Sequence record: NC_073085.1
Source of the DNA: Escherichia phage vB_EcoS_011D5
Reading direction: 5' to 3' (one strand)
DNA length: 45,204 nt
This document shows, in pieces, positions 4,552-45,204 of the stretch; position 1 is the first letter of the stretch; every line of letters starts with the position of its first letter. Made by a program: the position numbers and the translations under genes. The notes beneath the pieces are model-generated. The model was given only the letters and a program-made list of their open reading frames with translations. It did not search any database and had not been told where the DNA came from.

Positions 4552-5337
4552 TTAACGGCGGCGACGTTTACGTGGTGCTTCGTCTTCGTCGTCTTCGTCC
4601 TCATCTTCGTCATCGCGTGGCTTACGACGTTTACGAGGTTTCTCATCTTCGTCGTCTTCGTCGTCATCGCGGCGCTTGGACTTTTTGGACTTGCGCGGCT
4701 TGTCGTCTTCGTCATCGTCATCACGACGTTTTGACTTTTTGGACTTGCGCGGGCTTTCATCTTCGTCATCATCGCCCAGGTCTTCGTCGGAGCAAGAAGA
4801 ACCGCCACCGCCGAAGGATTCACCATCATCGCGGAAGCGAAGACCCAGCAATCCCGCACCGAGGCCTTTACCGTTGGTATTATTCCACGCCCAAATATCC
4901 AGGGACACGTTGCAATAACAACCGGAGTAGATCTCCTGGCCTTCGATCTCGTCGCCTTCTATGGTCAGACCTTGTTCCGTCTGCTTCTCGCCGAGTGACG
5001 TTTGAATGATCGGCTGTTTGAACGATTTGGCGTTGATGTACAACATGCCTTCGAATTCTTCGGTTACTTCGTCGCGCTCGTCACCGTCGCGAACTGCGCA
5101 TTCCTTAGAATCCTGAGCGTAGTGACGGTCCATCCACTTATCAGCATTCTTCTCGGATTTCAGCTTGTCGGTGAGCACTGCGCGCGCTGCCGCTTCCACT
5201 TTGTCCACCTGCGGATCTTCTTTATCAAGAAGAATCACTGCACGGTATGCCGGTTTTTGTCCATCCTGTTTAGGGGTATCACGTTCCCAGATTTTCAGGA
5301 AACATACGCGCACATTTTTCAGGTTGACTTTAGCCAT
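4552..5337 (-). CDS. Putative single-stranded DNA-binding protein with mixed-charge repetitive C-terminal tail
   Basis: N-terminus MAKVNLKNVRV...YRAVILLDKEDP resembles phage SSB N-termini; C-terminal tandem repeats DDDEDE..PRKSKKSKRR; RBS GAGGA. Confidence 0.5.
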   Translation of the reverse strand: MAKVNLKNVRVCFLKIWERDTPKQDGQKPAYRAVILLDKEDPQVDKVEAAARAVLTDKLKSEKNADKWMDRHYAQDSKECAVRDGDERDEVTEEFEGMLYINAKSFKQPIIQTSLGEKQTEQGLTIEGDEIEGQEIYSGCYCNVSLDIWAWNNTNGKGLGAGLLGLRFRDDGESFGGGGSSCSDEDLGDDDEDESPRKSKKSKRRDDDDEDDKPRKSKKSKRRDDDEDDEDEKPRKRRKPRDDEDEDEDDEDEAPRKRRRR

Positions 5338-7711: not shown

Positions 7712-8221
7712 TTAGTCTTCCAGTTCGAAATAGGTTTCGACGATTTCTTTCAGATCTTTGTGGAAATCTTCCACGTCGTCATCTTCCAGCTTGGCGATTG
7801 ATTTGATCTCGAACGCTTCCAGCAGGTCGTCAAATTCGTCGTTCGCATCGTCATCATCACCGCCTGCGATAATCGCGGCATACTGTTTGATTTCGTCGCG
7901 CATCTCTGCCAGCGGGTCGGCATCTTTCTTACCTTTGCCTTTCGCTGGTGCTTTTTTACCCTTCGCCGGTTTTTCGTCTTCGGCTTCATCGTCGTCATCT
8001 TCTACGACTTCTTTTTTGGCCTTACCTTTCGCCGTGGCTTTTTTACCTTTCGCCGGTGCTTCGTCTTCAGCGTCGTCATCTTCTACGACTTCTTTTTTGG
8101 CCTTAGCTGGCTTTTTATCTTCCTGCTTACCAACGGCAGCGCCCACGGTTTCATAATGTTTTGCGATGATTTCCAGTGCTACTACGCCGCGAGTGATCAG
8201 GTTTACGATTTGCTCAAACAT
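7712..8221 (-). CDS. Acidic early protein with tandem KKEVVEDDD-AEDE-PAKGKKA-AKGK repeats; first gene of the leftward operon
   Basis: ORF-track 7712..8449 trimmed to MFEQIVNL; RBS GGAGA; ~84 bp tandem DNA repeat at ~7970-8140; acidic C-terminus DEFDDLLEAF...EDDDVEDF. Confidence 0.6.
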   Translation of the reverse strand: MFEQIVNLITRGVVALEIIAKHYETVGAAVGKQEDKKPAKAKKEVVEDDDAEDEAPAKGKKATAKGKAKKEVVEDDDDEAEDEKPAKGKKAPAKGKGKKDADPLAEMRDEIKQYAAIIAGGDDDDANDEFDDLLEAFEIKSIAKLEDDDVEDFHKDLKEIVETYFELED

Positions 8222-8456
8222 GGTGTATCTCCGATTGGTTAAGTTTAGGTGTCGACCATTAACTTCGTCGGTGGCCTTAACATAGTGCCCGGTTGCGCGT
8301 TCTCCCTTTCGGGTAGTGGACCGGGTTATATAATCACGGTTGGGAATCCTGACACTTCGATCCGGCCCCTGCGTTGCCCCTCTCCAGTTTGCTTCCTGCA
8401 TCCTGTCGACGAGGTGAATATTAGATTGGTTGCAGAAGGGAGTCAACAACTAATTT

Positions 8457-8621: not shown

Positions 8622-8951
8622 ATGAATATCAAAGAAGCAATTGAAGTGTTATCTAATGCAATCCGCGGCGAAGCGGGTAAATCCTGGTATTACACAAATG
8701 CGGTGGATACTCTGTTATTTGAAGTGTCCAGATTATCGCGTGCTGAGAAGGAGCTTACCGCGAAGCTGGAATTACTCAACGGCACGGCAGCAAGCAAGCT
8801 GCAAAAGCACAATGAAGAAATGGAAGAATACAAAAAACAGGTTATCCGTTTGCGCGCCGAGGGCAAATCCTGGGCAATGATCGCTGAGTTGACAGGAATT
8901 AATCAGAGCACCGTGCGCTCCTGGGTACGCAATAATAAAACTTCGAAGTAA
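8622..8951 (+). CDS. HTH DNA-binding protein (putative early transcriptional regulator)
   Basis: C-terminal HTH-like SWAMIAELTGINQSTVRSWV; first gene of the rightward operon. Confidence 0.6.
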   Translation: MNIKEAIEVLSNAIRGEAGKSWYYTNAVDTLLFEVSRLSRAEKELTAKLELLNGTAASKLQKHNEEMEEYKKQVIRLRAEGKSWAMIAELTGINQSTVRSWVRNNKTSK

Positions 8952-8961
8952 GGCAACGGCA

Positions 8962-11226
8962 ATGAGCTTAATTAAATTCGCGGTAACACGACCCGCTAAA
9001 AAAGGCGAAAAAGCCAGGGCGGAAAACTTCCAGATGACCACCGATGAATTTTTCGAATTTATCAATGACGCGAAAGAAATCTCCTCGGTGCATATCAACA
9101 AGACGGAAGATAAAGCCGAGTATGCGCGCCGCAAGCGTAAGGCCGATGGCATCGTAGCTTATACCAGTGACGGCCTGCGCCGCAAGACCAGTGCGGTGGA
9201 CCGCTCGATCCTGTTCTTCGATATTGACCGCACCGACACTCGCACCCTACGCCGCTGCCGTAAGGCTTTCATCGACGCGGGGCTGGAGCACGTATTCCAC
9301 ACAACCACCGGCGACCGCCACCCGCTGAAAGGCGGCACGCGTTGCGCCCGTTTCCTGGTACTCACTGACAAGCCTGTACCGGCGGAAGACCTGGGCCGTG
9401 TCCAGTATGCGCTATTACACCAACTTGGCCTGTCAGATGTGGACTTCGACGATTGCACGAAAGACACAAACCGCCTGATGTACCTGCCGCACCAGCAGTC
9501 TGTCATTAAGTGTCACTACGGCAAACGTGCCCGCGTCCGTCGTCTGCTCCGCCTGGCGGATACGCTTGGCGTGGAGAAGGAAGAAGTACGCCGCGAGCTT
9601 ACCCAGGGCGACGACGCAGTGGCAGACGGCATTCTGGACTGGTGCTTCCAGGCAGGATTCGAGGAGTTATCTTCCGGTCGCGGTTATGAAGTGCCGTGCC
9701 CGAACGAACATCTGCACAGCGGCGAAGGGTCGACGGCTATCATGGTCAAGGATGGCGAGATCCGTTTCAAGTGTATGCACACCGGAAACGAGTGTTGCTC
9801 GGAGCTAAATAGACACCAGCACCTGGCGCTACGTCTTATCGGGATACCGGACCACCTGAACGTCGAGCCGCACAACATGTCACGTAAGCAAATCGCCGCC
9901 ATCCTCCCAGGGCTGGACGACGAGGAAGTCGAATCCTTATATGAACATATTGTTGATGCGGTTGGCGACGGCGAAGAATACGGCGTGTGCACCGATGCGG
10001 ATCTGGATAACGAGCCGGTCGCACTATTCAGTAAGCACGACCCGATCATCGAAGGGCTGATTAACTTTAAATCGACCTGGTATATGGCGGGCGAGTCGAA
10101 TATAGGTAAGTCCTTCTACGTGCTGGGGCAGATGGGCGCGGTTGCCGCGGGTATCCCGTTTGGCGGTGCGAAGGTCGTCCAGTCTCATTGCTTCTATTTC
10201 GACGCGGAAGGTGGCGAAGCCTCCAACCAGCGTAAAGAAGCATTGCAGATTAAATATGAGCACGACCTGGACAAGCTGCACATTATAGACCTGCAGTCCC
10301 GCGGCTGGGATATCACCAGCAAGTCCGGTTTGCGCGAAGTTATCAGTTTTATCAACCGCACCGCTAACGGCGAACCGGTTGGCCTGGTGGCGTTCGACTC
10401 ACTCAACCAGACTGTTGCGCTGCGGTCCGCCGATGCTAAACCGTTTGACGAGAACAACGCCAGCGATATGGGTGAAGTGGTCAAAGCGCTGAAAGCCATT
10501 GCGGAAAACACAGGTGGCAGTGCGGGCGTCATCCACCACCCGGCGAAGGGTGCAAACGGCAGCAGATCTCCCCGTGGGTCCGGCGCACTGCATGGCGCTG
10601 TCGATTCTGCGTTCTTCCTGGAACAGCCGGACGACAACCAGCCGGGACAACTCAACCTGTATCACGAAAAATCACGTAACGGCATCAAGCAAGCGCCGCG
10701 TGGCTTCGTCCTGCTCAAGTGCAAGGTGAAGGTGGATCTCCGCAAGTCAGAAGCGTTCGCGTCGCACCAGTCCACCAGCACCGGGCCAGACTTCGGCGAC
10801 GTTGTTGCCGGTTGGGACGTCAAACCAATTGCATCCACGCCACGCGATGAGACTCTGTACCTCGTACCGGTCGCCCTGGCACCGTTCGCTATAGAACAGG
10901 CGAAGGCGGCGGGCAAAGCCGCAGTTAAGGAAGAGAACACCGCCGGTCCGCGCAACGAAAAAGAGAAAGTGCTTTATGCGGCCCTGGAAAAACTGATGGA
11001 AGATAACCCGAGCCACACTGGATTCAGTAAATCGGCAATTGTCCGCCAGGCGGGACTCGCGAAGGGAGGCACTTCGACGAAGGCAATCGACGATATGGTC
11101 GAGCGCGGCGTGATTGGTTTTTATACAGACCCGCACACCGGGGCCATCTATGGGTCGTCGAATTTGGTCATCAAATCGGATATTCCCATAACGCTTTCGG
11201 CGACCGATGATGACCTGAAAGATTAA
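8962..11226 (+). CDS. Bifunctional primase/helicase (AEP-type prim-pol N-domain, zinc-binding linker, RecA/DnaB-like ATPase)
   Basis: ILFFDIDR...FHTTTGDRH (AEP motifs); CPNEHLHS...CMHTGNECC; Walker A GESNIGKS; Walker B VAFDSLNQ. Confidence 0.8.
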   Translation: MSLIKFAVTRPAKKGEKARAENFQMTTDEFFEFINDAKEISSVHINKTEDKAEYARRKRKADGIVAYTSDGLRRKTSAVDRSILFFDIDRTDTRTLRRCRKAFIDAGLEHVFHTTTGDRHPLKGGTRCARFLVLTDKPVPAEDLGRVQYALLHQLGLSDVDFDDCTKDTNRLMYLPHQQSVIKCHYGKRARVRRLLRLADTLGVEKEEVRRELTQGDDAVADGILDWCFQAGFEELSSGRGYEVPCPNEHLHSGEGSTAIMVKDGEIRFKCMHTGNECCSELNRHQHLALRLIGIPDHLNVEPHNMSRKQIAAILPGLDDEEVESLYEHIVDAVGDGEEYGVCTDADLDNEPVALFSKHDPIIEGLINFKSTWYMAGESNIGKSFYVLGQMGAVAAGIPFGGAKVVQSHCFYFDAEGGEASNQRKEALQIKYEHDLDKLHIIDLQSRGWDITSKSGLREVISFINRTANGEPVGLVAFDSLNQTVALRSADAKPFDENNASDMGEVVKALKAIAENTGGSAGVIHHPAKGANGSRSPRGSGALHGAVDSAFFLEQPDDNQPGQLNLYHEKSRNGIKQAPRGFVLLKCKVKVDLRKSEAFASHQSTSTGPDFGDVVAGWDVKPIASTPRDETLYLVPVALAPFAIEQAKAAGKAAVKEENTAGPRNEKEKVLYAALEKLMEDNPSHTGFSKSAIVRQAGLAKGGTSTKAIDDMVERGVIGFYTDPHTGAIYGSSNLVIKSDIPITLSATDDDLKD

Positions 11227-11319
11227 ATTTTGCGCGCATTGGTTGCCATTTTGAGTGTTTTTAGCTGGTCGCATTGGTTGCCGTGTGGTGTAAATATAGT
11301 GAATAGTTATGCAATAAAA

Positions 11320-11490
11320 CTGCATAAAGTAAGCGGGACAAAAAGCGGGACAGACCAGGGGCGGGACAAAGCGGGACAGCACCCCTGTCCCACCCCGGAT
11401 GACGCGGCCTGGCGGGGAGCGGGACAGGCGGGACAAACCCCAGTCTTTCAGACTAGACGGGGGTCAGTTGGCCCCCTCGTCTGAGACTGC
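11320..11490 (+). repeat. Composite repeat element copy A: 6 direct GCGGGACA(R) units, an inverted TGTCCC and a conserved GC hairpin block
   Basis: Direct reading; ~85-90 percent identical to 28560-28730. Confidence 0.85.
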
Positions 11491-11705
11491 ATAAAATCCG
11501 GGATTGCATAATACACGGCAGCATATTGGAAATCGCGGTCGTCGCTGAACTAGGCAACCAATGCGAGTTGCAGAATGGTGGGTGGGGAATGCAGTTTGCA
11601 GTTACAGCAGATAGCGATCAACTTTTTCATGCGCATGATTAATATTGGTTGCATTCGTGCCAGCACCCTGCTAGATTGGTTGCACACCAACAAGAGGACT
11701 GAACA

Positions 11706-26937: not shown

Positions 26938-27663
26938 ATGGGTTATCAACTTCCTAACGGGTCTAGCGTCCAGATTGGGTCCGTACTGGGCAACGGTATC
27001 GCTGTTACGGCAGCTACCAACGCCGCCGCGTCGATCTCTGATCTTACGAAAGGTTGCGTTATCACCTGCGCGGCTTCTCATGGCCTGCAAGTTGGTGACG
27101 TGGTTATGTTCACTAAAACCCCGTGGGTACGTGCGCTGAACCGCGCGTTTATCGTGGGTAAAGTGGCGACTAACGACGTTACACTGGCGCGCTTCGACAC
27201 CTCGGACGTTACCAAATATCCTACCGGTGCTTTCGGCGTAGGCACACCAGGCGAGGTGGTGAAGGTGTCGAGCTTTATCGACTTCCCGTTTATCACTAAC
27301 GTCGCCGTGTCTGGTGGCGACCAGCAGACTACTACCTTCCAGCCGTTGCAGGTGAATACCGCGATCAGTCTGAACACCACGAAAAACCCGTTGGTCCAGA
27401 CCTACACTTTCACCCACGACGAAGAAGACCCGATCCGCCCGATTCTGGAAGACCTGGACGACACACAGAAAACCACTGTGATTAAGTTCACCAACCCGGC
27501 AGCGGCAAGCGGCAAAGGTGAGATCCGCATTTACCCGGCTAAGGTGTCTTTCCAGAAGATTCCATCTGCTGAAGTAAACAACGTGGAGACGGTGGAGTCC
27601 ACCCTCACTATGCAGTCCGATATGGTTATTTACCGTAAGGATTTGGTCGAGGCGCTGTCGTAA
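26938..27663 (+). CDS. Major tail (tube) protein
   Basis: 241 aa; RBS CAGGAG; followed by strong terminator and G/T chaperone genes. Confidence 0.7.
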   Translation: MGYQLPNGSSVQIGSVLGNGIAVTAATNAAASISDLTKGCVITCAASHGLQVGDVVMFTKTPWVRALNRAFIVGKVATNDVTLARFDTSDVTKYPTGAFGVGTPGEVVKVSSFIDFPFITNVAVSGGDQQTTTFQPLQVNTAISLNTTKNPLVQTYTFTHDEEDPIRPILEDLDDTQKTTVIKFTNPAAASGKGEIRIYPAKVSFQKIPSAEVNNVETVESTLTMQSDMVIYRKDLVEALS

Positions 27664-27691
27664 TTTGGTCGCTTAAATAGCGGGTGTTAAT

Positions 27692-27717
27692 ATGGGGCCA
27701 GTACGGCCCCTTTTTTA
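27692..27717 (+). terminator. Intrinsic terminator after the major tail gene
   Basis: GGGGCC-agta-CGGCCCC followed by T6. Confidence 0.75.
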
Positions 27718-27732
27718 TTGGAGAATTACATA

Positions 27733-28095
27733 ATGGCTAAATCACCACTCTTCACACTTGACCCTAAACCGACCTTTAAGCTGCCGATTGAGATCCCGCG
27801 CCCTGGTGAGAACGAACCGGGCAAAATGACGTTTACCGTGCGCCACCGCCCTATCGACGAATTTTCGCAGACCATGCAGGACACTGAGCGCAAATTGTCG
27901 GAGTATGACGACAATGACCCGGAAGGATTTAACGTTATGGTCGAGGCCATCATGCACGTCGCTGAAGGCTGGAATTTGCCGGACGAATTTAATGCTGCCA
28001 ACGTCCGCCGCCTGGTAGTCAACTACCCGCGCGCGTTCGGCGTGTTCCATACGTCATACTACCTCGAATTGATGGGGTTGCGTGAAAAAAACTAA
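27733..28095 (+). CDS. Tail assembly chaperone (gpG-like)
   Basis: Acidic ~120 aa protein between major tail and tape measure genes; ends at slippery run. Confidence 0.7.
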   Translation: MAKSPLFTLDPKPTFKLPIEIPRPGENEPGKMTFTVRHRPIDEFSQTMQDTERKLSEYDDNDPEGFNVMVEAIMHVAEGWNLPDEFNAANVRRLVVNYPRAFGVFHTSYYLELMGLREKN

Positions 28096-28409
28096 TTGAG
28101 GCGGCGCGGCGCTTTTATGGCCCGCCGCCACCCTCCGAAGATTTAGCCGCAAGTTTATGGGGCGCGACACCTGAAGACGTGTGTCCACCCGTTGCGCTGT
28201 GGCCCGACAACGCGAAGGTAGTCGCAGTCTTCACAGATTGCTCCACGCAATGGCGTACCGGATTTGGTGGCGCATACGGCATCGACTACGGCGTACTGGA
28301 ATGGTTATTTAAGATGCACGGCATCGAAAACGCGCAACGTGCGTTTAAAGATATCAAGCTAATGGAACGCGTTGCGCTGGATGAGATGGCGCGGCAGAAC
28401 CCCGCATAA
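27733..28409 (+). CDS. Tail assembly chaperone frameshift fusion (gpGT-like), joined by -1 shift at ~28086-28092
   Basis: Downstream ORF 28179..28409 lies in the -1 frame of the G-like gene and has no start or RBS of its own. Confidence 0.6.
28086..28092 (+). other. Candidate -1 programmed frameshift slippery heptamer A_AAA_AAC
   Basis: Heptamer 3 nt before the G-like stop; -1 frame open from 28086 to 28409. Confidence 0.65.
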
Positions 28410-28730
28410 CGAAGCGGGACAGGCGGGACGTCCCGTTTTGTCCCGCCACCATTAAACCGCATATATACTCACTTTCATTGCATAAACTAAAAGCGGGACA
28501 GGGGTGCTGTCCCGATCTGTCCCGCCCCTCAAAAGTGAATGGCTATGCGGTTTTTCTGCATAAAACAAACGGGACAGAAAGCGGGACAGAATGAGGCGGG
28601 ACAAAGCGGGACAGCACCCCTGTCCCAGTCAGTGCTGCCGCTGGTTTTAGCCGATCGGGACAGGCGGGACAAAGCCCAGTCTTTCAGACTAGACGGGGGT
28701 CAATGGCCCCCCTCGTCTGAGACTGAATAA
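28410..28730 (+). repeat. Composite repeat region copy B: ~12 GCGGGACA/TGTCCCGC units in both orientations, GGGACGTCCC palindrome, conserved hairpin block
   Basis: Direct reading; 28560-28730 is ~85-90 percent identical to 11320-11490. Confidence 0.85.
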
Positions 28731-28793
28731 GGTTTGTTTTAAATTCGCTGATACAATGACCGACGGCAACTGCATAAAAAGGGGGACTGCATA

Positions 28794-31436
28794 ATGGCAG
28801 ATCAGGCAGCGGGCATCACGCTCAAGGCGGACGTCGCGCAAATTAAAACGGCTAATACTGTGCTGGACACATTCGCGCAGAAATCCGAGAACACAGAACA
28901 GAAAGTAAAGAAATTAAACGACACACTCGGCAAGTCGAAAAAGGTTACTGGCGACGCCGCGGGCGGAATGGAAAAGTTAGCGACTGAATCGCAGCGCGCC
29001 GCCGACGGCATGACGAAACAGGAGCGACTAGCCAGCCGATTAGGCATGTCGACCAAAAACCTGGGATTTGCTTCACGGAACGCGGCATTCCAGTTACAGG
29101 ATATTGCGGTAACGCTTGAGATGGGTATGCCGGTGCACCGCGTCATGCTTCAGCAGTTACCACAGCTAACCGGCGCATTCGGCGGATTAGGTAACACGCT
29201 GCGTTATGTTGCGGGCTTCCTCGGCCCAGTAGGGATCGGACTTGCGGCAGTAACGGCGACATTAGGCGTGGGCGTGGCAATCACGTCACGGGCAGAGAAC
29301 CAGGTAGCCGCGCTTAATAAGACGCTGGCGCTGTCCGGTAATATTTCAGGCCTCACAGCTAACCAGATCCTTGTGCTGTCCGAGAACGCTGAGCGCATGG
29401 GCGGGTCATTTCGCAAGACGCGTGACACAATCCAGGCGCTGGCGGCGGCGGGTGTGAAAGCGGGTGGTGACTTCGGCGCATTGGCTAAGGTAGTTAATGA
29501 CTTTGCGAAGGTGTCCAGCCAGCCGATCGAGGATGTGGTGGCGGCGGTGGCGAAGCTGTCAACCGACCCCGTTGGCGGACTGCGTGCGCTGGCGGATAAG
29601 TATCACGTCGTAAACGAAGCGCAGATCCAGCAGGTACAGTCGCTCGTTGATGCGGGTCGTGAGACAGACGCAGTTGCGTTGGCTAACAAAACAGCCGCTG
29701 CGTCGTTCACCAGTATGACCAATGAGATCAAGGCGAACATGGGTACGCTTGAGCGATCTATGAACGTCGTCACATCGGCAGCCAAATCAATGTGGGATGC
29801 CATCCTGGATGTGGGCCGCGCGCAGTCCTCCAATGAGTCCGAGATGAAAGCGCGCGAATCACTACAGCGCATGACCACGGCTTACTATGCCGAGATGAAA
29901 GCGGTAAACGCTGCCGGTGGGGTAATGACTGAAGCGCAGAAAGCACGTATTAACATGCTTTACAGCGAACTGGTCGCCCAGGAAAAAGTGGTGGCGTCGC
30001 TCACCCTGCGTAACCGTGCTGAGCGAGACAACGCCCGCGCCGCAGACGAATCCGCAAAGGCGAACGAGGAGGCCAACCGCACTGCCCGTGACCGCGCCGC
30101 GTTCGAGAAGGAATACGCCACCAACGCTAAGAAGCGCGCCGACGAGATCGCCCGCCTCAATTTGCTGAATAAGCGCGGCGTTATTGATGAGAAAGAACTA
30201 GCCGAGGCGGTGAAGCAGGTAAACGAGCGGTACAAAGACCCAGCCCCGAAAAAGGCCGCGGCTGTTCGCGTGGATGCCGGTATGAAAATGCTGGAAGTCG
30301 CACGGAGCGAACTGGCCCAGCTTCGAGAATCCGGCAAGCAGATCGAAGCCAACGCGTCTACGCAGACCCGCACGCAACGCGCTCAAGCGGCCTTAAACAA
30401 GCTGATCGCCGACAATGAGCAGTTAATCGCTGCGAGCAAAGAAAGAGCGCTAACGGCAGCAGAAAAGCAGCAATTAGTCGAGTTCGGGCGCGTGAAGGAA
30501 GTCCGCGAGCAGATCGTCGAAGAAGCCAAATTGCTGGATGCGAAAGAGCAGCAGGTTAAGGCGCACGCGCAGATCGATGCCTTCGTTAAGAACCAGAACG
30601 CCGAACTAAAAGCCACCGCCGCGGGGTATGCGCTTTCCACTCGCGAAGCGGCAAACCTGCGCGAAGAATTGCAGCTAATTGACCGCCTGAAGCGGGTTGG
30701 CGCTAACGATACCGATATTGACAAGGCGGTGTCTAAGCTGCGAGAAGTGCAGGAAGCACAGACCGGCGCTAACGCCTCGTTATGGGATGGATTCAGTCGC
30801 GGGCTTAAGGATAGCGTGGATGAAATGGGTAACGGATATACGCAGATGGCGTCGCTCACGAAATTTACATTCAGCGCTATGCAGGACACGATGAACGAGT
30901 TTTTCGAGACTGGTAAGCTGAACGCAAAGGATATGGTTAAGTCCATCCTGAGCGAATTAATCAAGCTGGCTACCTCGCAGGCGTTCAAGTCCATCGTTAG
31001 CGCTTTCGGTGGTGACGGCGGCAAAAACGGATTGTTCGGCGCTATCTTCTCTGGCCTCACTAAGAATGCGGACGGCGGAGCGTACACAGGCGGCAATCTC
31101 GCGGCCTATTCGGGGAAAGTGGTAAGCCAGCCTACCTTTTTCAGTTATGGCGTCCAGGCGTTCGCTAAGGGCGCTGGGTTGATGGGTGAGGCTGGACCCG
31201 AGGCCATCATGCCACTGAAGCGCGGGCCGGACGGGAAACTGGGCGTTGCCGCGTCTGGCGCAGGCGGTGGTATGGTCGTGACGACTAACGTTTACACGGG
31301 GACCGGTAAGACGGACACCAGTGTTAGCGGGCCAGACCCACGTACCGCGCAGGCGTTCGGCAAGCAAATCACCGAGGCGGTGAAGTCCGAGATCGTGAAA
31401 GCGACTAAACCAGGTGGTGTACTTTACAAACGATGA
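28794..31436 (+). CDS. Tail tape measure protein
   Basis: 880 aa Ala/Gln-rich helical protein downstream of G/GT; Gly-rich segments. Confidence 0.85.
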   Translation: MADQAAGITLKADVAQIKTANTVLDTFAQKSENTEQKVKKLNDTLGKSKKVTGDAAGGMEKLATESQRAADGMTKQERLASRLGMSTKNLGFASRNAAFQLQDIAVTLEMGMPVHRVMLQQLPQLTGAFGGLGNTLRYVAGFLGPVGIGLAAVTATLGVGVAITSRAENQVAALNKTLALSGNISGLTANQILVLSENAERMGGSFRKTRDTIQALAAAGVKAGGDFGALAKVVNDFAKVSSQPIEDVVAAVAKLSTDPVGGLRALADKYHVVNEAQIQQVQSLVDAGRETDAVALANKTAAASFTSMTNEIKANMGTLERSMNVVTSAAKSMWDAILDVGRAQSSNESEMKARESLQRMTTAYYAEMKAVNAAGGVMTEAQKARINMLYSELVAQEKVVASLTLRNRAERDNARAADESAKANEEANRTARDRAAFEKEYATNAKKRADEIARLNLLNKRGVIDEKELAEAVKQVNERYKDPAPKKAAAVRVDAGMKMLEVARSELAQLRESGKQIEANASTQTRTQRAQAALNKLIADNEQLIAASKERALTAAEKQQLVEFGRVKEVREQIVEEAKLLDAKEQQVKAHAQIDAFVKNQNAELKATAAGYALSTREAANLREELQLIDRLKRVGANDTDIDKAVSKLREVQEAQTGANASLWDGFSRGLKDSVDEMGNGYTQMASLTKFTFSAMQDTMNEFFETGKLNAKDMVKSILSELIKLATSQAFKSIVSAFGGDGGKNGLFGAIFSGLTKNADGGAYTGGNLAAYSGKVVSQPTFFSYGVQAFAKGAGLMGEAGPEAIMPLKRGPDGKLGVAASGAGGGMVVTTNVYTGTGKTDTSVSGPDPRTAQAFGKQITEAVKSEIVKATKPGGVLYKR

Positions 31437-38948: not shown

Positions 38949-40589
38949 ATGGCAGCGGGTACACTATCCGTAACGAATAACAGCAAGGCGGTTGTCGGGG
39001 TAGGCACGACGTTTACCACGTTTACCGCTGGCGACTTCTTAACTCTGGTGGTGGGGCAAGTGCCTTACACTGTTGCTATCGCGTCCGTCGAAAGCGACAC
39101 CGCGATTACGCTTGTGCTTCCGTTCGACGGCCCCACGGCAACCGGCCTCGCGTGGGATGGCGTTAAGCGCGATACCATGTCGCTGGCAACGATGGGCGTA
39201 ACAGTACAGGCACAGAAAGCGTTGCGCTTGATGATCGCTGACGAAAACAACTGGCGTGCAATCTTCGGAGACGAAGAAGAAGTCACGGTAACGCTGCCGA
39301 ACGGGCAAGTTATGCAAGGTATGTCCTGGGGCTACCTGTCACAATTGATGAATCAGATCGACCCCGTTGAAATGCGCAACCTGCAACAACAAGCCGCGGC
39401 ATCTGAAGCAGCAGCGCAAGGATTTCGCAATGAGGCCGAAGGCTTCAAGACTGAGACGGCGGGGATCCGCGACGCCACCAACCAGATTAAGGCGGATACG
39501 CAGGCTATCCACGACGCCACCAATACCATCAAGACGCAGACGGCCCAGATTAAGACTGACACGCAGGCCATCAAGGGCCAGACGGACCAGATTAAGACAG
39601 ACACCGGCGTTATTCGCGATGAGGCCAATGCCGCGAAGGCTGAAGCGCAAGCCGCCAGCACTGCCGCGCTTGGATATCGGAACGAGGCCGAACAATTCAA
39701 GAATGAGATTGACCCGTCTAACTTTCTGGCAAAGGGTGGCAACCTGGCTGGGTTAACTGACTTGCCCGAGTCGCGGGATAACTTGGGTTTAGGAGCGTTG
39801 GCGACTAAAGATTCGGCGGCGCTAAACTCCACAGATACGACCGGTATTCTGCCCTTAGATAAGGGCGGTTTAGGCGCTGGTACCATCCCTGGCGCACGGG
39901 AGACGATGCATATTTATGGTCATGACGCTACGTTCGGGACCATAAATAATATCCTCACATACTTCAACAATATTGCGGGTAACGGCGGACTCTTCTCGTT
40001 TCGAGATGGTGCCGTTGACGCCACGAACACCTACAAATTCGGCTCAGCAATACTGTTTCGCACAGCCGACACCTACGGACTGTTAAGTGTTGACCACAAC
40101 AGCGGAAACGTTAGAGCATCCGGTGGTACAGTTTCTGGTGGGATCGCGGCCACAGCATACATCAACAACCTGTGGGGTACGCGTAACACCACCGTAGACG
40201 GTAACGGGTTTATTAAAACCGCGTCGCCCATCGTCAAGATCTTCAGTGACGGTGCCGCGGAGACTAACGACGAGGCCGAAGGCGTTACGGTGACTCGCAT
40301 ATCTGCGGGGGTGTATGTTGTGGAGGGGTGTCTAGGCCTCAACTCAGACCCATCCTGGGGCGGGCCTGACGGCGGGATTGAGATTCCGACGGACGTGAAC
40401 AAGCAGCCTCGTTTATGGGTTGATTATAAAGTGCGCGCTGACGGCTCTGTGGAGGTACGCACATACCACCGAACACACCCACACGCTCCAGCATTCGCAA
40501 GAAATGAGATAGAAGGTGTGGCGGAAGGGGACCCGGTTGATATACCGCGTGGCACGTTCATATCTGTTCGGGTTAATATGCCTGAGTAA
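38949..40589 (+). CDS. Tail fibre protein with 11-residue periodic helical repeats
   Basis: RBS GAGGA; repeats IKADTQAIHDA / TNTIKTQTAQ / IKTDTQAIKGQ / TDQIKTDTGV (33 nt periodicity ~39460-39620). Confidence 0.7.
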   Translation: MAAGTLSVTNNSKAVVGVGTTFTTFTAGDFLTLVVGQVPYTVAIASVESDTAITLVLPFDGPTATGLAWDGVKRDTMSLATMGVTVQAQKALRLMIADENNWRAIFGDEEEVTVTLPNGQVMQGMSWGYLSQLMNQIDPVEMRNLQQQAAASEAAAQGFRNEAEGFKTETAGIRDATNQIKADTQAIHDATNTIKTQTAQIKTDTQAIKGQTDQIKTDTGVIRDEANAAKAEAQAASTAALGYRNEAEQFKNEIDPSNFLAKGGNLAGLTDLPESRDNLGLGALATKDSAALNSTDTTGILPLDKGGLGAGTIPGARETMHIYGHDATFGTINNILTYFNNIAGNGGLFSFRDGAVDATNTYKFGSAILFRTADTYGLLSVDHNSGNVRASGGTVSGGIAATAYINNLWGTRNTTVDGNGFIKTASPIVKIFSDGAAETNDEAEGVTVTRISAGVYVVEGCLGLNSDPSWGGPDGGIEIPTDVNKQPRLWVDYKVRADGSVEVRTYHRTHPHAPAFARNEIEGVAEGDPVDIPRGTFISVRVNMPE

Positions 40590-40599
40590 AGCATAATGC

Positions 40600-40625
40600 G
40601 AAGGGGCCATTCGGCCCCTTTTTAA
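40600..40625 (+). terminator. Intrinsic terminator after the tail fibre gene
   Basis: GGGGCC-attc-GGCCCC followed by TTTTT. Confidence 0.7.
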
Positions 40626-41197
40626 TTTGAGTTTTCCCAGTCCATTTTGCGCCGCACAAGCGGGCTTTCGTAGTATTCCTTACCTTCCACTTCCACTAAA
40701 TGCCAGTCATTCACAATCACGTATGGCTCTGCTATATCCTCAATCACGCCGTGCGCGCTATGCTGCCCGAACGACACGCCAACCAGAATAACACCGGCAA
40801 CCCGACGGGAAAGATACTCGCGGGCACAACGGGCCTCAACCAGACCGCGACGGATGCCGCTGGTGGCTTTGACCTCATATGTCCAGACGGCATCAATCAT
40901 GTGCTCTTTGTAGTCAGGACCGGATTTTACCTTGCGCTTGCCGACCATGATAATATCGCCTCGGTCGATAGTGTTAGCGCTAAACAGGCCGGTACGCATT
41001 AGCAAACCTTGCGGGATACAGCTACGCCCGCCCGCCTGCCCTTCGAGGTACATTCCCGCAAACATCTCACCCAGCACACCGACAAGGCGGCTTTGCTTGC
41101 ACGCGTCAGACTTTAAGCGCCACTGTTCAAATTCGATGCTGGCTAACATTGCCGCCAGGTGGAATTGTTTACCGGTTATTTCATATTCGCCGTACAT
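40622..41197 (-). CDS. Hypothetical protein, possible PD-(D/E)xK nuclease
   Basis: GDIIMVG ... IDAVWTYEVKAT is compatible with a D...ExK motif; weak. Confidence 0.4.
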   Translation of the reverse strand: MYGEYEITGKQFHLAAMLASIEFEQWRLKSDACKQSRLVGVLGEMFAGMYLEGQAGGRSCIPQGLLMRTGLFSANTIDRGDIIMVGKRKVKSGPDYKEHMIDAVWTYEVKATSGIRRGLVEARCAREYLSRRVAGVILVGVSFGQHSAHGVIEDIAEPYVIVNDWHLVEVEGKEYYESPLVRRKMDWENSN

Positions 41198-42952: not shown

Positions 42953-43397
42953 AGTCTGGATCTATCGCATACAGGGCGGTTTTCTTGCCGCTAGACAGCA
43001 CACGTTGGACTCGGGATATCTCCGCCCTACTGAGCGGTCTGCTATCGGAATAGTAGCTGCCGTTTGCACGCCACGCTATACGCACCAGTCCTTCCCGCGG
43101 GATCGAAGACTGGCGGCCTTTGGGGCGCACGTACTCCTCCGCGCGTTTACAATGCTCCCGCAGACCGTCGGCAGTGATGCGGTTTAGCGCCACGCTGGTT
43201 GTGTATCCGGTGCGCTGCATAATACCCATCAACTCATACAGCAGATCGAAGCGCTCCTCTAATTCCTTGCGCGCCTTCTCCTCGCCTTCATAGCTCGCCA
43301 GGTAGGTGTCCGCCAGCGCGTTCGCGCGTTCGGCCTGTTCGCGGGCTTCGAGGCATTGCGCGGCCCAGTAATTTTTTTCTTCTTGTAAAATTTTCAT
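42939..43397 (-). CDS. Coiled-coil hypothetical protein
   Basis: ORF-track, ATG start; helical charged sequence. Confidence 0.45.
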   Translation of the reverse strand: MKILQEEKNYWAAQCLEAREQAERANALADTYLASYEGEEKARKELEERFDLLYELMGIMQRTGYTTSVALNRITADGLREHCKRAEEYVRPKGRQSSIPREGLVRIAWRANGSYYSDSRPLSRAEISRVQRVLSSGKKTALYAIDPDYDGE

Positions 43398-44751: not shown

Positions 44752-45204
44752 TTGCGCGCCTTTTTAGCTTTCATGTATTCCATCAAGTCGTCCTGAATAT
44801 CTCGCTTACTGTCGCGACGTTCGGCGACCAGTTCATCCAGTGTCCCGCGCGCCTGGATAATGTAGACGAATACCGGACGAGGGTGTCCGGCTTGCATCTG
44901 GCGAACCGGCCCTATACGCTCCACAATCTGCGAAAAGTGCTCATAGTTCCAGGTGTCTGAGAAGATAGCAAGGTGGTGCCCCCCATCCTGCAGGTTAAGT
45001 CCGTGACCCGCTGACGCTGGGTGTGCAAACATGATGGGGATCTCGCCCCTGTTCCACGCTTCCATATCCTTATTTCCTTGCTTACCCTTACCCATCGCTA
45101 CGCCGTGCGGGAATTTCTTCTTGAGACGCGCCAGATCATGCTTGTACTGGTATGCGACGAGCAACGGCGCGCCGTTCAACTCCTCCACGATACTTTCCAG
45201 CGCG
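44748..45204 (-). CDS. SNF2/DEAD-like helicase, C-terminal part (helicase motif VI-like HPASAGHGLNLQ)
   Basis: ORF-track 44748..45188 has no true start (GTG in-frame) and continues upstream into the duplicated end. Confidence 0.8.
   Translation of the reverse strand, partial: ALESIVEELNGAPLLVAYQYKHDLARLKKKFPHGVAMGKGKQGNKDMEAWNRGEIPIMFAHPASAGHGLNLQDGGHHLAIFSDTWNYEHFSQIVERIGPVRQMQAGHPRPVFVYIIQARGTLDELVAERRDSKRDIQDDLMEYMKAKKARK

What the first reader, a model, noticed from the sequence alone, without database searches (positions are those of the whole stretch)
28410..28793. A ~385 bp repeat-dense noncoding insert separates the tail chaperone (G/G-T) genes from the tape measure gene
In lambda-like tail modules the chaperone and tape measure genes are normally contiguous and co-translated. 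Here 28410-28793 has no credible ORF (the one track ORF, 28539-28730, is a translation of the repeats) and holds about 12 GCGGGACA/TGTCCCGC units in both orientations. These include a perfect palindrome GGGACGTCCC (~28417-28430) and an everted pair GCGGGACAGGGGTGCTGTCCCG...TGTCCCGCC, in addition to copy B of the composite element. The tape measure ATG sits in ...AAAAAGGGGGACTGCATAATG, so the element reaches the ribosome-binding region. This could be a late-gene regulatory array, a structured RNA leader controlling tape measure dosage, a second origin or packaging-related site, or an inserted selfish element.
Basis: partly seen in the sequence, partly recalled or inferred. Interest (0 to 1): 0.75.

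Follow-up and report, generated by a model that had tools for sequence, protein, structure and literature searches.

The report
Second replication-origin-like repeat array before tape-measure gene
The 384-base gap before this phage's tail tape-measure gene is a conserved array of short protein-binding repeats, a twin of one beside the phage's replication helicase-primase gene, and is most likely a second replication-origin-like site with its own transcription signals, a layout known from phage SPP1.

Summary
Window 28410-28793 is non-coding, lies between the tail chaperone G/GT and the tape-measure gene, and carries 12 GGGACA units in both orientations, A+T-rich spacers and a conserved 49-nt hairpin. 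Its 3' two-thirds duplicate a module at 11298-11522, directly after the helicase-primase gene.

The window is a complete Dhillonvirus genome (99.9% to phage EC115). The gap is present in all about 157 Dhillonvirus records, in Edwardsiella Eiauvirus, and in several uncultivated lineages. It is absent from outgroups with a homologous chaperone.

The repeat word changes between lineages (GCGGGACA, GTGTGGCA, CGGTGCCA, TCGCCCCG, GCWGCCAAC, TTGCGAGT). Wherever both sites could be read, the word is the same at both. [quoted passage not shown]

Best reading (0.55): iterons for the phage initiator, forming a second origin-like site like SPP1 oriR or P4 crr, bracketed by a terminator-like hairpin and an extended -10 promoter-like site. 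No binding or replication was tested. The Sodalis phage SO-1 GenBank record already flags both repeat regions. I class it as a new member of a known kind, of moderate interest.

The parts
27733..28409 (+). Tail assembly chaperone G (27733-28095) and its -1 frameshift extension T (to 28409). This is the left boundary of the gap.
   Evidence: Pfam Phage_TAC_4 E=2e-23 and DUF1799 E=6e-20. Slippery heptamer A AAA AAC at 28086-28092, read.
28410..28447 (.). Repeat unit 1: CGGGACA (+, 28415), palindrome CGGGACGTCCCG (28424-28435) followed by TTTT, then CGGGACA (-, 28439-28445).
   Evidence: D12. The HK578 record annotates the homologous site as a rho-independent terminator. Relatives L031 and L087 carry a canonical terminator at this position. 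RNA fold -24.8 kcal/mol, z -4.2.
28448..28492 (.). A+T-rich spacer (71% A+T) containing TGCATAA. Candidate DNA-unwinding element.
   Evidence: 99.5th percentile of all 40-bp windows. Genome A+T is 45.5%.
28493..28526 (.). Repeat unit 2: CGGGACA (+, 28494) and two inverted copies (28508-28514, 28518-28524). Inverted copy of 28595-28626.
   Evidence: D12, I2.
28527..28569 (.). Second A+T-rich spacer (63% A+T). Homology with copy A starts at 28534. Holds TGCATAAA just before the array.
   Evidence: (D7).
28570..28627 (+). Core array: four direct CGGGACA (28570, 28582, 28597, 28607) ending in the palindrome GGGACAGCACCCCTGTCCC (28608-28626).
   Evidence: D11 is 100% identical to 11360-11392. The repeats are invariant in 15 relatives while the spacers vary.
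28656..28671 (+). Two further direct CGGGACA copies (28656, 28665).
28677..28725 (+). Conserved hairpin / imperfect palindrome CAGTCTTTCAGACTAGACGGGGG-loop-CCCCCCTCGTCTGAGACTG.
   Evidence: RNA fold -28.4 kcal/mol, z -3.9. The stems are invariant and the loop is free to vary in 24 distinct Dhillonvirus copies. Compensatory changes occur in L087 (A-T to G-C), L155 (G-C to T-A) and the outer stem of eiAU.
28749..28757 (+). TGATACAAT, an extended -10 promoter-like site with no -35.
   Evidence: Invariant in 15 typical relatives and in L160. The canonical -35/-10 scan found nothing in 27600-29000.
28763..28770 (+). ACGGCAAC, a one-mismatch copy of the genome-wide oriented octamer ACGGCAGC. Copy A has an exact copy at 11515.
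28781..31436 (+). Shine-Dalgarno-like GGGGGA (28781-28786), ATG at 28794, and the tape-measure gene. This is the right boundary of the gap.
11298..11522 (+). Copy A of the composite module: A+T-rich lead (11283-11333, 71% A+T), 4 direct + 1 inverted + 2 direct CGGGACA, hairpin 11441-11489, then CATAAT and ACGGCAGC.
8962..11226 (+). Helicase-primase of 754 aa. It has an N-terminal primase-like region, an AAA_25 RepA/DnaB-like helicase domain (residues 357-531), and a C-terminal winged helix (about residues 666-737, nt 10957-11172). It is the candidate repeat-binding initiator.

Best explanation
The gap is one of two arrays of binding sites (iterons) for the phage's own replication initiator, most probably the helicase-primase acting through its C-terminal winged-helix domain.

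Copy A, directly after the helicase-primase gene, would be the primary origin. Copy B, the finding, is a derived second origin-like site that was placed between the chaperone and tape-measure genes in an ancestor of Dhillonvirus, Eiauvirus and related lineages.

Proposed steps, all inferred:
1. The initiator occupies the GGGACA repeats.
2. The adjoining 45-50 bp A+T-rich stretch opens.
3. The conserved hairpin and the neighbouring ACGGCAGC-like word mark where helicase loading or priming starts.

Copy B could fire as a second origin. It could act in cis with copy A, as P4 crr does with ori. Or it could hold bound initiator as a fork barrier, as proposed for SPP1 oriR.

Because the insert splits an operon, it also carries its own transcription punctuation. 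A terminator-like hairpin follows GT, and an extended -10 site (TGATACAAT) with a Shine-Dalgarno sequence re-starts tape-measure expression.

Shown here: the anatomy, the conservation, the duplication, the lineage-specific repeat word shared by both sites, the predicted winged-helix fold, and its co-variation with the word. Inferred: binding, origin activity, and promoter and terminator activity.
For: 1. Repeat density is far above chance and sits next to some of the most A+T-rich 40-bp stretches of the genome.

2. The same composite follows the helicase-primase gene.

3. Both regions are conserved at about the level of the flanking genes in about 157 Dhillonvirus records.

4. The repeat word switches between lineages while the architecture stays the same. 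It is identical at both sites in every genome where both could be read:
- GCGGGACA in typical Dhillonvirus and in the L153/L087 contig
- GTGTGGCA in contig ERR11172925_9173 and in L155
- TCGCCCCG in eiAU-183
- GCTGCCAAC with GGGAT in L157/L159
- GCAGCCAAC with AAGGGA in L163/L162

5. The small HTH protein next door has an identical recognition region in lineages with different words, so it is not the binder.

6. The helicase-primase ends in a predicted winged helix. Its helix 2 and helix 3 residues group with the word: GFSKSAI/GGT.T.AI with GGGACA, GFSRRAI/GGSSTKPI with GTGGCA in two separate clusters, and GFSKAAI/GGSTTTAI with GGTGCCA.

7. This C-terminal domain is more conserved than the rest of the protein within the GGGACA group (94-99% against 78-85% in three of four clusters). 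It is less conserved between groups (53-65% against 68-72%).

8. In Cornellvirus PhiSTP1, whose winged helix resembles that of the GCWGCCAAC lineages, the only three GC[AT]GCCAAC sites in 44 kb lie within 330 bp at the 3' end of its helicase-primase gene.

9. Precedents exist. In SPP1, gp38 binds direct repeats at oriL, inside its own gene, and at oriR. oriR interrupts the late structural genes between transcription signals and sits with moron genes (PMC6316719). Primase-helicase-winged-helix initiators are known from P4 alpha and pRN1 ORF904, and the pRN1 origin is a stem-loop downstream of the gene (PMC2777425, PMC4234260).

10. Relatives L087 and eiAU carry reverse-strand extra ORFs inside the gap, and L031 and L087 carry canonical terminators after GT.
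Against: - No binding, replication or transcription data exist for any member of the group.
- Cumulative GC skew has its minimum at 8403, at the divergent early promoters, and shows no inflection at either array. Skew here follows gene orientation, so this neither supports nor refutes an origin.
- The co-variation rests on about eight lineages and is confounded with overall divergence. Another variable, unidentified protein could be the binder.
- Kagunavirus relatives of the helicase-primase have no array downstream.
- Both copies keep the orientation of late transcription and end in -10-like hexamers. That fits a purely transcriptional role equally well.
- Repeat spacing (9-16 bp) is irregular.
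Confidence: 0.55

Rival explanations
1. The gap is a transcription control module for late and tail genes. The repeats are upstream binding sites for a phage activator or repressor, possibly the same winged-helix protein acting as a regulator. That protein switches on a -35-less promoter in front of the late block (copy A) and again in front of the tape-measure and tail-tip genes (copy B), downstream of the strong terminator that follows the major tail gene.
For: - Copy A sits at the boundary between the early genes (HTH, helicase-primase) and the lysis, packaging and structural block. Copy B sits after three intrinsic terminators of the late operon (21652, 24864, 27695) and directly after a terminator-like hairpin.
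- Both copies keep the orientation of + strand transcription in every lineage.
- Both end in -10-like hexamers lacking a -35. B has TGATACAAT, which is invariant. A has CA(A/T)AAT.
- The distance from hairpin to -10 differs by about 10 bp between A and B, which is one helical turn (read).
Against: - The repeat word co-varies with the replication protein, not with the dedicated small HTH regulator.
- Arrays of 7-12 sites flanked by A+T-rich blocks are more typical of origins than of activator sites.
- TGNTANAAT is not enriched in the genome (6 found against 3.9 expected), and the consensus promoter scan finds nothing in the gap.
- A separate ordinary promoter (TTGCAT-17-TAGATT at 11648-11676) already precedes the first convincing gene after copy A.
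Confidence: 0.25
2. The gap acts as RNA. It would be a structured leader or processing site, for example an RNase III-type hairpin or a processive antitermination element like HK022 put or lambda nut. Such an element would set the stability or read-through of tape-measure mRNA. Two copies per genome would match putL/putR or nutL/nutR.
For: - The region folds far better than shuffles (-169 kcal/mol, z -7.2).
- The 49-nt hairpin has invariant stems, a freely varying loop and three compensatory changes in distant relatives.
- It lies 69 nt upstream of the ATG and would be transcribed if upstream transcription reads through.
Against: - No Rfam family reaches threshold. Only generic hairpin models appear, far below their cut-offs.
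- Five of the 12 repeats are inverted. In Eiauvirus the repeats are C-rich on the sense strand where Dhillonvirus is G-rich, so no common RNA motif is kept.
- Symmetric changes in a palindrome are equally expected for a DNA hairpin or a dimer-binding site.
- The high fold score is an automatic consequence of the inverted repeats.
- If the TGATACAAT promoter is real, the hairpin lies upstream of the transcript.
Confidence: 0.08
3. The gap is a packaging recognition site (pac or cos accessory), with the repeats bound by the small terminase subunit.
For: Repeated short motifs flanking a cut site are known for P1 pac, SPP1 pac and lambda cosB (own knowledge). Several public records start or end inside this gap.
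Against: - The record ends fall at different positions (window 28297, 28620, 28688). They are explained by assemblies breaking at the A/B repeat. Contig ERR11172925_9173 starts in B and ends in A with a 27-nt identical overlap.
- The terminase genes are 12 kb away (16572).
- The window's own ends are a 115-bp overlap inside a gene, as expected for a circularly assembled or permuted genome.
- The repeat word tracks the helicase-primase, not the terminase.
Confidence: 0.04
4. The gap is an inserted selfish repeat element (MITE-like) or decaying junk with no function for the phage.
For: It interrupts an otherwise contiguous gene pair, it is present in two copies, and it is rich in inverted repeats.
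Against: - It is fixed at the same two positions in about 157 genomes and across genera. It is conserved about as well as the neighbouring genes, and the repeats are more conserved than the spacers.
- There is no copy in 5,426 complete E. coli genomes or 72,556 plasmids.
- There is no presence/absence polymorphism, and no terminal inverted repeats with target duplications.
Confidence: 0.02

Closest known systems
Bacillus phage SPP1 oriL / oriR with initiator gp38
   Same: SPP1 is a virulent siphovirus with two similar repeat-plus-A+T-rich regions bound by one initiator. One region is at the initiator gene. The other interrupts the conserved order of late structural genes, is bracketed by transcription signals and is accompanied by moron genes. 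oriR has been proposed as a barrier that triggers the theta-to-sigma switch (PMC6316719).
   Different: - The initiator family differs. gp38 works with a separate loader and a DnaB-type helicase, whereas here the candidate is a single primase-helicase-winged-helix protein.
- SPP1 oriL lies inside the initiator gene, whereas copy A here lies just downstream of it.
- SPP1 oriR sits between head genes, not between the chaperone and the tape measure.
- Binding and replication are shown for SPP1 and for nothing here.
Satellite phage P4 ori / crr with alpha protein
   Same: P4 uses octamer iterons in both orientations at two separated cis sites, both bound by one multifunctional protein with primase, helicase and a C-terminal winged-helix origin-binding domain. 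The domain order is cited in PMC2777425. The ori/crr details are from my own knowledge of Flensburg & Calendar 1987 and Ziegelin et al. 1993-95.
   Different: - P4 alpha has a DnaG-type primase and an SF3 helicase, whereas here the helicase is the RecA-fold AAA_25 (RepA/DnaB-like) type.
- There is no sequence similarity to solved structures.
- The P4 sites are 4.5 kb apart and neither splits a structural operon.
pRN1 ORF904 and its downstream stem-loop origin; RSF1010 oriV (iterons plus ssi hairpins)
   Same: The pRN1 origin lies just downstream of a primase-helicase-winged-helix gene, and a conserved stem-loop is essential there (PMC4234260). RSF1010 combines iterons, an A+T-rich block and hairpins recognised by its primase, and its RepA helicase is of the AAA_25 type (own knowledge).
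   Different: pRN1 has no iterons. In RSF1010 the three activities are on separate proteins and the hairpins come as a pair on opposite strands. Homology of the hairpins was not tested and is not apparent.
'Region A' and 'region B' repeat_region features of the Sodalis phage SO-1 GenBank record (NC_013600.1)
   Same: This is the same element in a congeneric phage. Feature 11214-11597 lies between gp16 and the tape-measure gene, and 40178-40657 lies after the helicase-primase.
   Different: This is an annotation only. The record says nothing about co-variation or a binder.

Membership tests
Iteron-type replication origin | Several copies of one short repeat clustered in non-coding DNA | tested here: met
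   12 GGGACA in 256 bp, and 7 in copy A. No shuffle reaches the observed genome count.
Iteron-type replication origin | An adjoining A+T-rich stretch that can serve as an unwinding element | tested here: met
   28448-28492 is 71% A+T (99.5th percentile). 11283-11333 is 71% A+T (99.9th percentile). Composition only; melting was not tested.
Iteron-type replication origin | A cognate initiator with a sequence-specific DNA-binding domain, encoded in the same genome and usually next to the origin | tested here: met
   The helicase-primase ends 72 bp before copy A. Its C-terminal winged helix was predicted (pLDDT 78-90) and matched only winged-helix domains.
Iteron-type replication origin | Initiator specificity region and iteron sequence change together between relatives | tested here: met
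   About eight lineages were compared. The number is small and the result is partly confounded with phylogeny.
Iteron-type replication origin | The initiator binds the repeats, and the region supports initiation of DNA synthesis | not testable with these tools
   Needs EMSA or footprinting, and marker-frequency, 2D-gel or plasmid amplification assays.
Iteron-type replication origin | Strand-composition switch at the origin | tested here: inconclusive
   The cumulative GC skew minimum is at 8403 and there is no inflection at 11.3 or 28.6 kb. Skew follows gene orientation in this genome.
SPP1-type second origin in the late region | A second repeat set resembling the first, placed among structural genes and bracketed by transcription signals | tested here: inconclusive
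   The duplication and the position are met. The signals are only consensus-level. CGGGACGTCCCG-TTTT was not called by the terminator scan on the + strand. Canonical terminators are present in relatives L031 and L087. TGATACAAT is invariant.
Sigma-70 promoter (canonical -35/-10) | Two hexamers with 16-18 bp spacing | tested here: not met
   No site was found in 27600-29000. Only an extended -10-like site is present.
Known RNA family (Rfam 15) | A score at or above a family's gathering threshold | tested here: not met
   No hit in the whole window. Only miRNA-type hairpin models appear, far below threshold, at E up to 10.
Protein-coding gene in the gap | An open frame and start codon kept in relatives, or a family match | tested here: not met
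   The start codon is lost in 11 of 15 relatives, with stops and frameshifts in 5. No Pfam hit.
Mobile repeat element (MITE-like) | Dispersed copies, presence/absence polymorphism, and occurrence outside this phage group | tested here: not met
   The element is fixed in 157 records at two positions. It has no match in E. coli genomes or plasmids.

The most novel reading that the evidence does not exclude
Copy B is not a firing origin. It would be a programmed roadblock or coupling device. Initiator bound in front of the tape-measure gene stalls forks coming from copy A, triggering the switch to concatemer synthesis. The same bound initiator would tie expression of the tail-tip genes to replication.

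The 33 oriented, selectively conserved ACGGCAGC octamers, one of which closes each module, would then be an unusually long strand-specific priming or end-protection signal of this phage group. Together these would form a replication grammar not described for E. coli siphoviruses.
Probability: 0.15. Interest if true: 0.7.

Novelty: new member of a known kind. Interest (0 to 1): 0.45.

Why it matters
Dhillonviruses are common E. coli and Shigella phages used in therapy and defence-system studies. As far as I could find, nothing is known about how they start replication or time their late genes.

If the reading is right, it gives a concrete origin and initiator pair to test. It supplies a natural set of specificity swaps, with at least six repeat words paired with matching winged-helix variants. 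It also explains why the otherwise near-universal chaperone/tape-measure junction is split in this group.

There is a practical point too. The two near-identical modules break short-read assemblies, which explains records that start or end here.

Tried and rejected
- Rfam, at gathering threshold over the whole window and at relaxed threshold over the gap, gave nothing usable.
- A PDB sequence search with the helicase-primase gave no hit. The small HTH gave only weak generic HTH hits.
- A protein search with the C-terminal 194 residues alone returned nothing. The full-length query was needed.
- A pattern scan for the hairpin core in IMG/VR returned 58 loci. The non-Dhillonvirus and non-Eiauvirus hits were chance matches: tRNA arms, ordinary terminators, and sites in coding DNA of microviruses and inoviruses.
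- The 355-bp gap before the tape-measure gene of Cornellvirus PhiSTP1 is not repeat-dense. It is probably the frameshift T segment.
- GC skew was uninformative.
- I did not use the count of structure pairs on the hairpin. The MAFFT alignment (A4) shifts the divergent rows out of structural register, so I read the compensatory changes directly from the sequences.
- The SO-1 feature note is cut off after 'possible ...' and I could not recover the rest. Three literature searches found no paper describing these regions.
- I considered TGCATAA pairs spaced 17 bp apart as -35/-10 elements. I dropped this because the second copy overlaps the tape-measure ATG and the motif is not kept in copy A of most relatives.
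Full report
**What the window is.** The 45,204-base window is a complete phage genome whose first and last 115 bases are identical. It is 99.9% identical over the tested stretch to Escherichia phage EC115, genus Dhillonvirus, the HK578-like siphoviruses. Genes run leftward from about 8.4 kb and from about 45 kb to 38.6 kb; these are the replication genes. They run rightward from 8.6 to 38.6 kb in this order: a small HTH protein, a 754-residue helicase-primase, small genes and lysis genes, terminase, head, tail.

**Checking the observation.**
- The gap 28410-28793 lies between the tail chaperone and the tape-measure gene. The chaperone is Phage_TAC_4 at 27733-28095 with its -1 frame DUF1799 extension to 28409. 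The tape-measure gene starts at 28794.
- CGGGACA occurs 22 times in the window against 6.2 +/- 2.3 expected. Eleven copies are in the gap and six are in a second cluster at 11334-11435.
- GGGACA occurs 12 times in the gap, seven forward and five reverse.
- From 28534 to 28730 the gap repeats the sequence at 11298-11494. One 33-base block is identical.
- The only sizeable ORF (28539-28730) has no family match. It loses its start codon in 11 of 15 relatives and is interrupted in five.

**Anatomy.** From left to right the gap holds the following elements.
- Two 34-36 bp units, each made of a forward repeat, a small palindrome and reverse repeats (28412-28447 and 28491-28526).
- A 45-bp stretch of 71% A+T between these units (28448-28492).
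- A second A+T-rich stretch (28527-28569).
- Four direct repeats ending in the palindrome GGGACAGCACCCCTGTCCC (28570-28627).
- A 28-bp spacer, then two more direct repeats (28656-28671).
- A 49-nt hairpin (28677-28725; -28.4 kcal/mol as RNA).
- The sequence TGATACAAT (28749-28757), then ACGGCAAC, a Shine-Dalgarno-like GGGGGA, and the ATG.

Copy A has the same order from its A+T-rich lead onward. [quoted passage not shown]

**Distribution.**
- The gap is present in all about 157 Dhillonvirus records, at 84-100% identity in nearly all of them. This is similar to the flanking genes.
- In alignments of 15 region B and 14 region A sequences, the repeats, the hairpin stems and TGATACAAT are invariant or nearly so. 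The spacers and the hairpin loop vary.
- Two outgroups with a homologous DUF1799 chaperone have the chaperone and tape-measure genes 39 bp apart or overlapping. These are Aeromonas phage pAEv1818 and Pectobacterium phage Ymer. So the insert is a derived feature.
- It is old, though. It is present in Edwardsiella phage eiAU-183 (Eiauvirus; gap about 1.1 kb including a reverse-strand ORF), in a divergent Dhillonvirus-like contig (L087; tape-measure protein 58% identical), and in uncultivated lineages whose tape-measure proteins are 51-62% identical.
- The region has no match in 5,426 complete E. coli genomes or in 72,556 plasmids.

**The key comparative result.** The architecture is kept across lineages: A+T-rich lead, direct repeats, palindrome, spacer, two repeats, hairpin. 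The repeat word itself changes between lineages.

| Lineage | Repeat word | Sites read |
|---|---|---|
| Typical Dhillonvirus; L153/L087 contig | GCGGGACA | A and B |
| L155 | GTGTGGCA | A only |
| Contig ERR11172925_9173 (L160/L161) | GTGTGGCA | A and B |
| L156 | CGGTGCCA | A only |
| eiAU-183 | TCGCCCCG | A and B |
| L154, L158 | TTGCGAGT-like | A only |
| L157/L159 | GCTGCCAAC with GGGAT | A and B |
| L163/L162 | GCAGCCAAC with AAGGGA | A and B |

Wherever both sites of one genome could be read, they carry the same word. There are five such lineages. That pattern calls for a sequence-specific binder that evolves together with its sites.

**Which protein binds.** The small HTH protein encoded just upstream (8622-8951) has an identical recognition region, GKSWAMIAE-TGIN-STVRSWVRN, in lineages whose words are GGGACA, GTGGCA and GGTGCCA. 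It cannot explain the switches. It fits instead the invariant motif ATTGGTTGC, which is found near promoters in all these phages.

Within this domain the second and third helices group with the repeat word.
- GFSKSAI...GGT(S/N)T(K/T)AI occurs in both GGGACA lineages.
- GFSRRAI...GGSSTKPI occurs in two separate GTGGCA clusters.
- GFSKAAI...GGSTTTAI occurs in the GGTGCCA lineage.
- eiAU and the TTGCGAGT and GCWGCCAAC groups have unrelated sequences at these positions. The two TTGCGAGT lineages resemble each other there.

The domain is more conserved than the rest of the protein inside the GGGACA group, at 94-99% against 78-85% in three of four clusters. It is less conserved between groups, at 53-65% against 68-72%. 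That is the behaviour expected of a specificity determinant.

In Cornellvirus PhiSTP1 the winged helix resembles the GCWGCCAAC type. The only three GC[AT]GCCAAC sites in its 44 kb lie within 330 bp at the 3' end of the helicase-primase gene, next to a G/C-rich hairpin. About 0.7 sites are expected by chance in the whole genome.

**Most likely mechanism.** These facts fit an initiator and its iterons. I propose that the helicase-primase recognises the repeats through its winged helix, opens the adjacent A+T-rich stretch, and loads and primes nearby. Copy A would be the primary origin and copy B a second origin-like site.

The hairpin core (GACGGGGG...CCCCTCGTC) is kept across lineages whose repeat words differ. 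Compensatory changes occur in L087, in L155 and in the outer stem of eiAU. This suggests that the hairpin is read by a conserved part of the machinery rather than by the variable domain. All steps beyond sequence anatomy, fold prediction and co-variation are inference.

**Transcription.** The insert splits an operon, so it must also handle transcription.
- The homologous start of the gap is annotated as a rho-independent terminator in the HK578 record. Two relatives carry canonical terminators at that spot. The window's own version (CGGGACGTCCCG-TTTT) is weak and was not called by the scan on the + strand.
- TGATACAAT is an extended -10 match with no -35. It is invariant in relatives and lies 37 nt before the ATG. 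As a class, such matches are not enriched in the genome.
- I therefore treat 'terminator plus restart promoter' as plausible but unproven. A mainly transcriptional role for the array is the main rival explanation (0.25).

**Comparison with known systems.**
- The closest functional parallel is phage SPP1. Its initiator gp38 binds direct repeats next to A+T-rich elements at oriL, inside gene 38, and at oriR. oriR interrupts the conserved late-gene order, lies between transcription signals and is accompanied by moron genes. It has been proposed to stall forks and trigger the switch to rolling-circle synthesis (PMC6316719). Relatives of the present phage also carry extra reverse-strand ORFs in the gap.
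- The protein architecture parallels P4 alpha and pRN1 ORF904: primase, helicase, then C-terminal winged helix. The pRN1 origin is a stem-loop just downstream of the gene (PMC2777425, PMC4234260). P4's two cis sites (ori and crr) with octamer iterons, lambda's palindrome beside its iterons, and RSF1010's iterons with primase-recognised hairpins are recalled from my own knowledge. I did not test them here.
- No homology to any of these initiators was detected. The claim is therefore 'works like', not 'is a member of'.

**Novelty.** The two repeat regions were already noticed by the annotators of Sodalis phage SO-1 (a Dhillonvirus). They recorded them as 'region A' and 'region B' with a 'possible ...' function that the tool cut off. 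The record for phage 'rolling' also marks a repeat_region. I found no paper that analyses them. The element is thus known as a feature, and its kind (an iteron array with a distal second copy) is known. What this analysis adds:
- the breadth of conservation;
- the lineage-specific word shared by both sites;
- the exclusion of the small HTH protein as the binder;
- the link to a winged helix on the helicase-primase.

**Verdict.** The finding is real, conserved and functional-looking. It is best explained as a second origin-like iteron array with built-in transcription punctuation (confidence 0.55). I class it as a new member of a known kind, with interest 0.45.

Noticed in passing
whole window; e.g. 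11515, 14950, 30453, 32340 (+) and 1383, 9261, 34708 (-): The octamer ACGGCAGC occurs 33 times against 2.6 +/- 1.7 expected, 26 on the + strand and 7 on the - strand, inside genes of both orientations and with unrelated flanks. All 17 copies between 11.5 and 33.5 kb are on the + strand. The 7 reverse copies all lie in the half-circle to the left of region A, and the same holds in EC115 and HK578. The word is fully conserved in 25/29, 26/31 and 25/31 aligned sites in HK578, SO-1 and KarlBarth, against 14-18 expected from flank identity. It is also frequent in related phages, including Cornellvirus PhiSTP1. It is not E. coli Chi. One copy closes each composite module. It could be a strand-oriented priming or end-protection signal, but it remains unexplained.
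   Followed up: partly
8425; 11238/11273; 11554; 11644/11675; 12229; 22823/22837; 38924; 41786/41797; 43695/43712: A second motif, ATTGGTTGC, has 13 exact copies, mostly in pairs or palindromes in intergenic regions. It often supplies a TTGCAx -35 hexamer 17 nt before a -10-like hexamer. It is conserved as TGCAACCAA(C/T) in Eiauvirus and the uncultivated lineages. The small HTH protein (8622-8951) has an invariant recognition region across lineages and is the obvious candidate binder.
   Followed up: partly
1-115 and 45090-45204: The window ends are identical over 115 bases and lie inside a reverse-strand gene. This is an assembly overlap of a circular or circularly permuted genome, not a biological terminal repeat.
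   Followed up: no
L160 1-27 and L161 3844-3870; records listed: Short-read assemblies break at the A/B duplication. Contig ERR11172925_9173 starts in region B and ends in region A with a 27-nt identical overlap. Several GenBank records (UAE_MI-01, EcoIv6a_Kente, vB_EcoS_PNS1, eiAU-183) start or end inside the gap at differing positions.
   Followed up: yes
21652, 24864, 27695, 37660, 40603: A family of near-identical intrinsic terminators (GGGGCC-N4-5-GGCCCC followed by T5-6) punctuates the late operon, including one right after the major tail gene. Downstream genes therefore need read-through or fresh promoters.
   Followed up: no
L087 2680-3044 (reverse strand); L011 968-1321 (eiAU gp54): In two relatives the same gap also houses a reverse-strand ORF. 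In L087 it encodes a small protein with a hydrophobic N-terminus, and in eiAU a 117-aa hypothetical protein. The gap is thus a tolerated landing place for extra genes.
   Followed up: no
L155 4880-4905, L156 4858-4880, L157 7868-7890, L087 3343-3368, eiAU 27037-27060 and 43105-43128: The short element TGATTTATAAGGA(G/A) sits in the spacer between the palindrome and the last two repeats in most lineages, whatever their repeat word. In typical Dhillonviruses, including this window, it is replaced by unrelated G+C-rich spacers. Its function is unknown.
   Followed up: no
4578-4782 and 7978-8108: CTTCGTC-type tandem repeats lie inside reverse-strand genes, where they encode acidic Asp/Glu runs. 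They are coding repeats unrelated to the finding.
   Followed up: no
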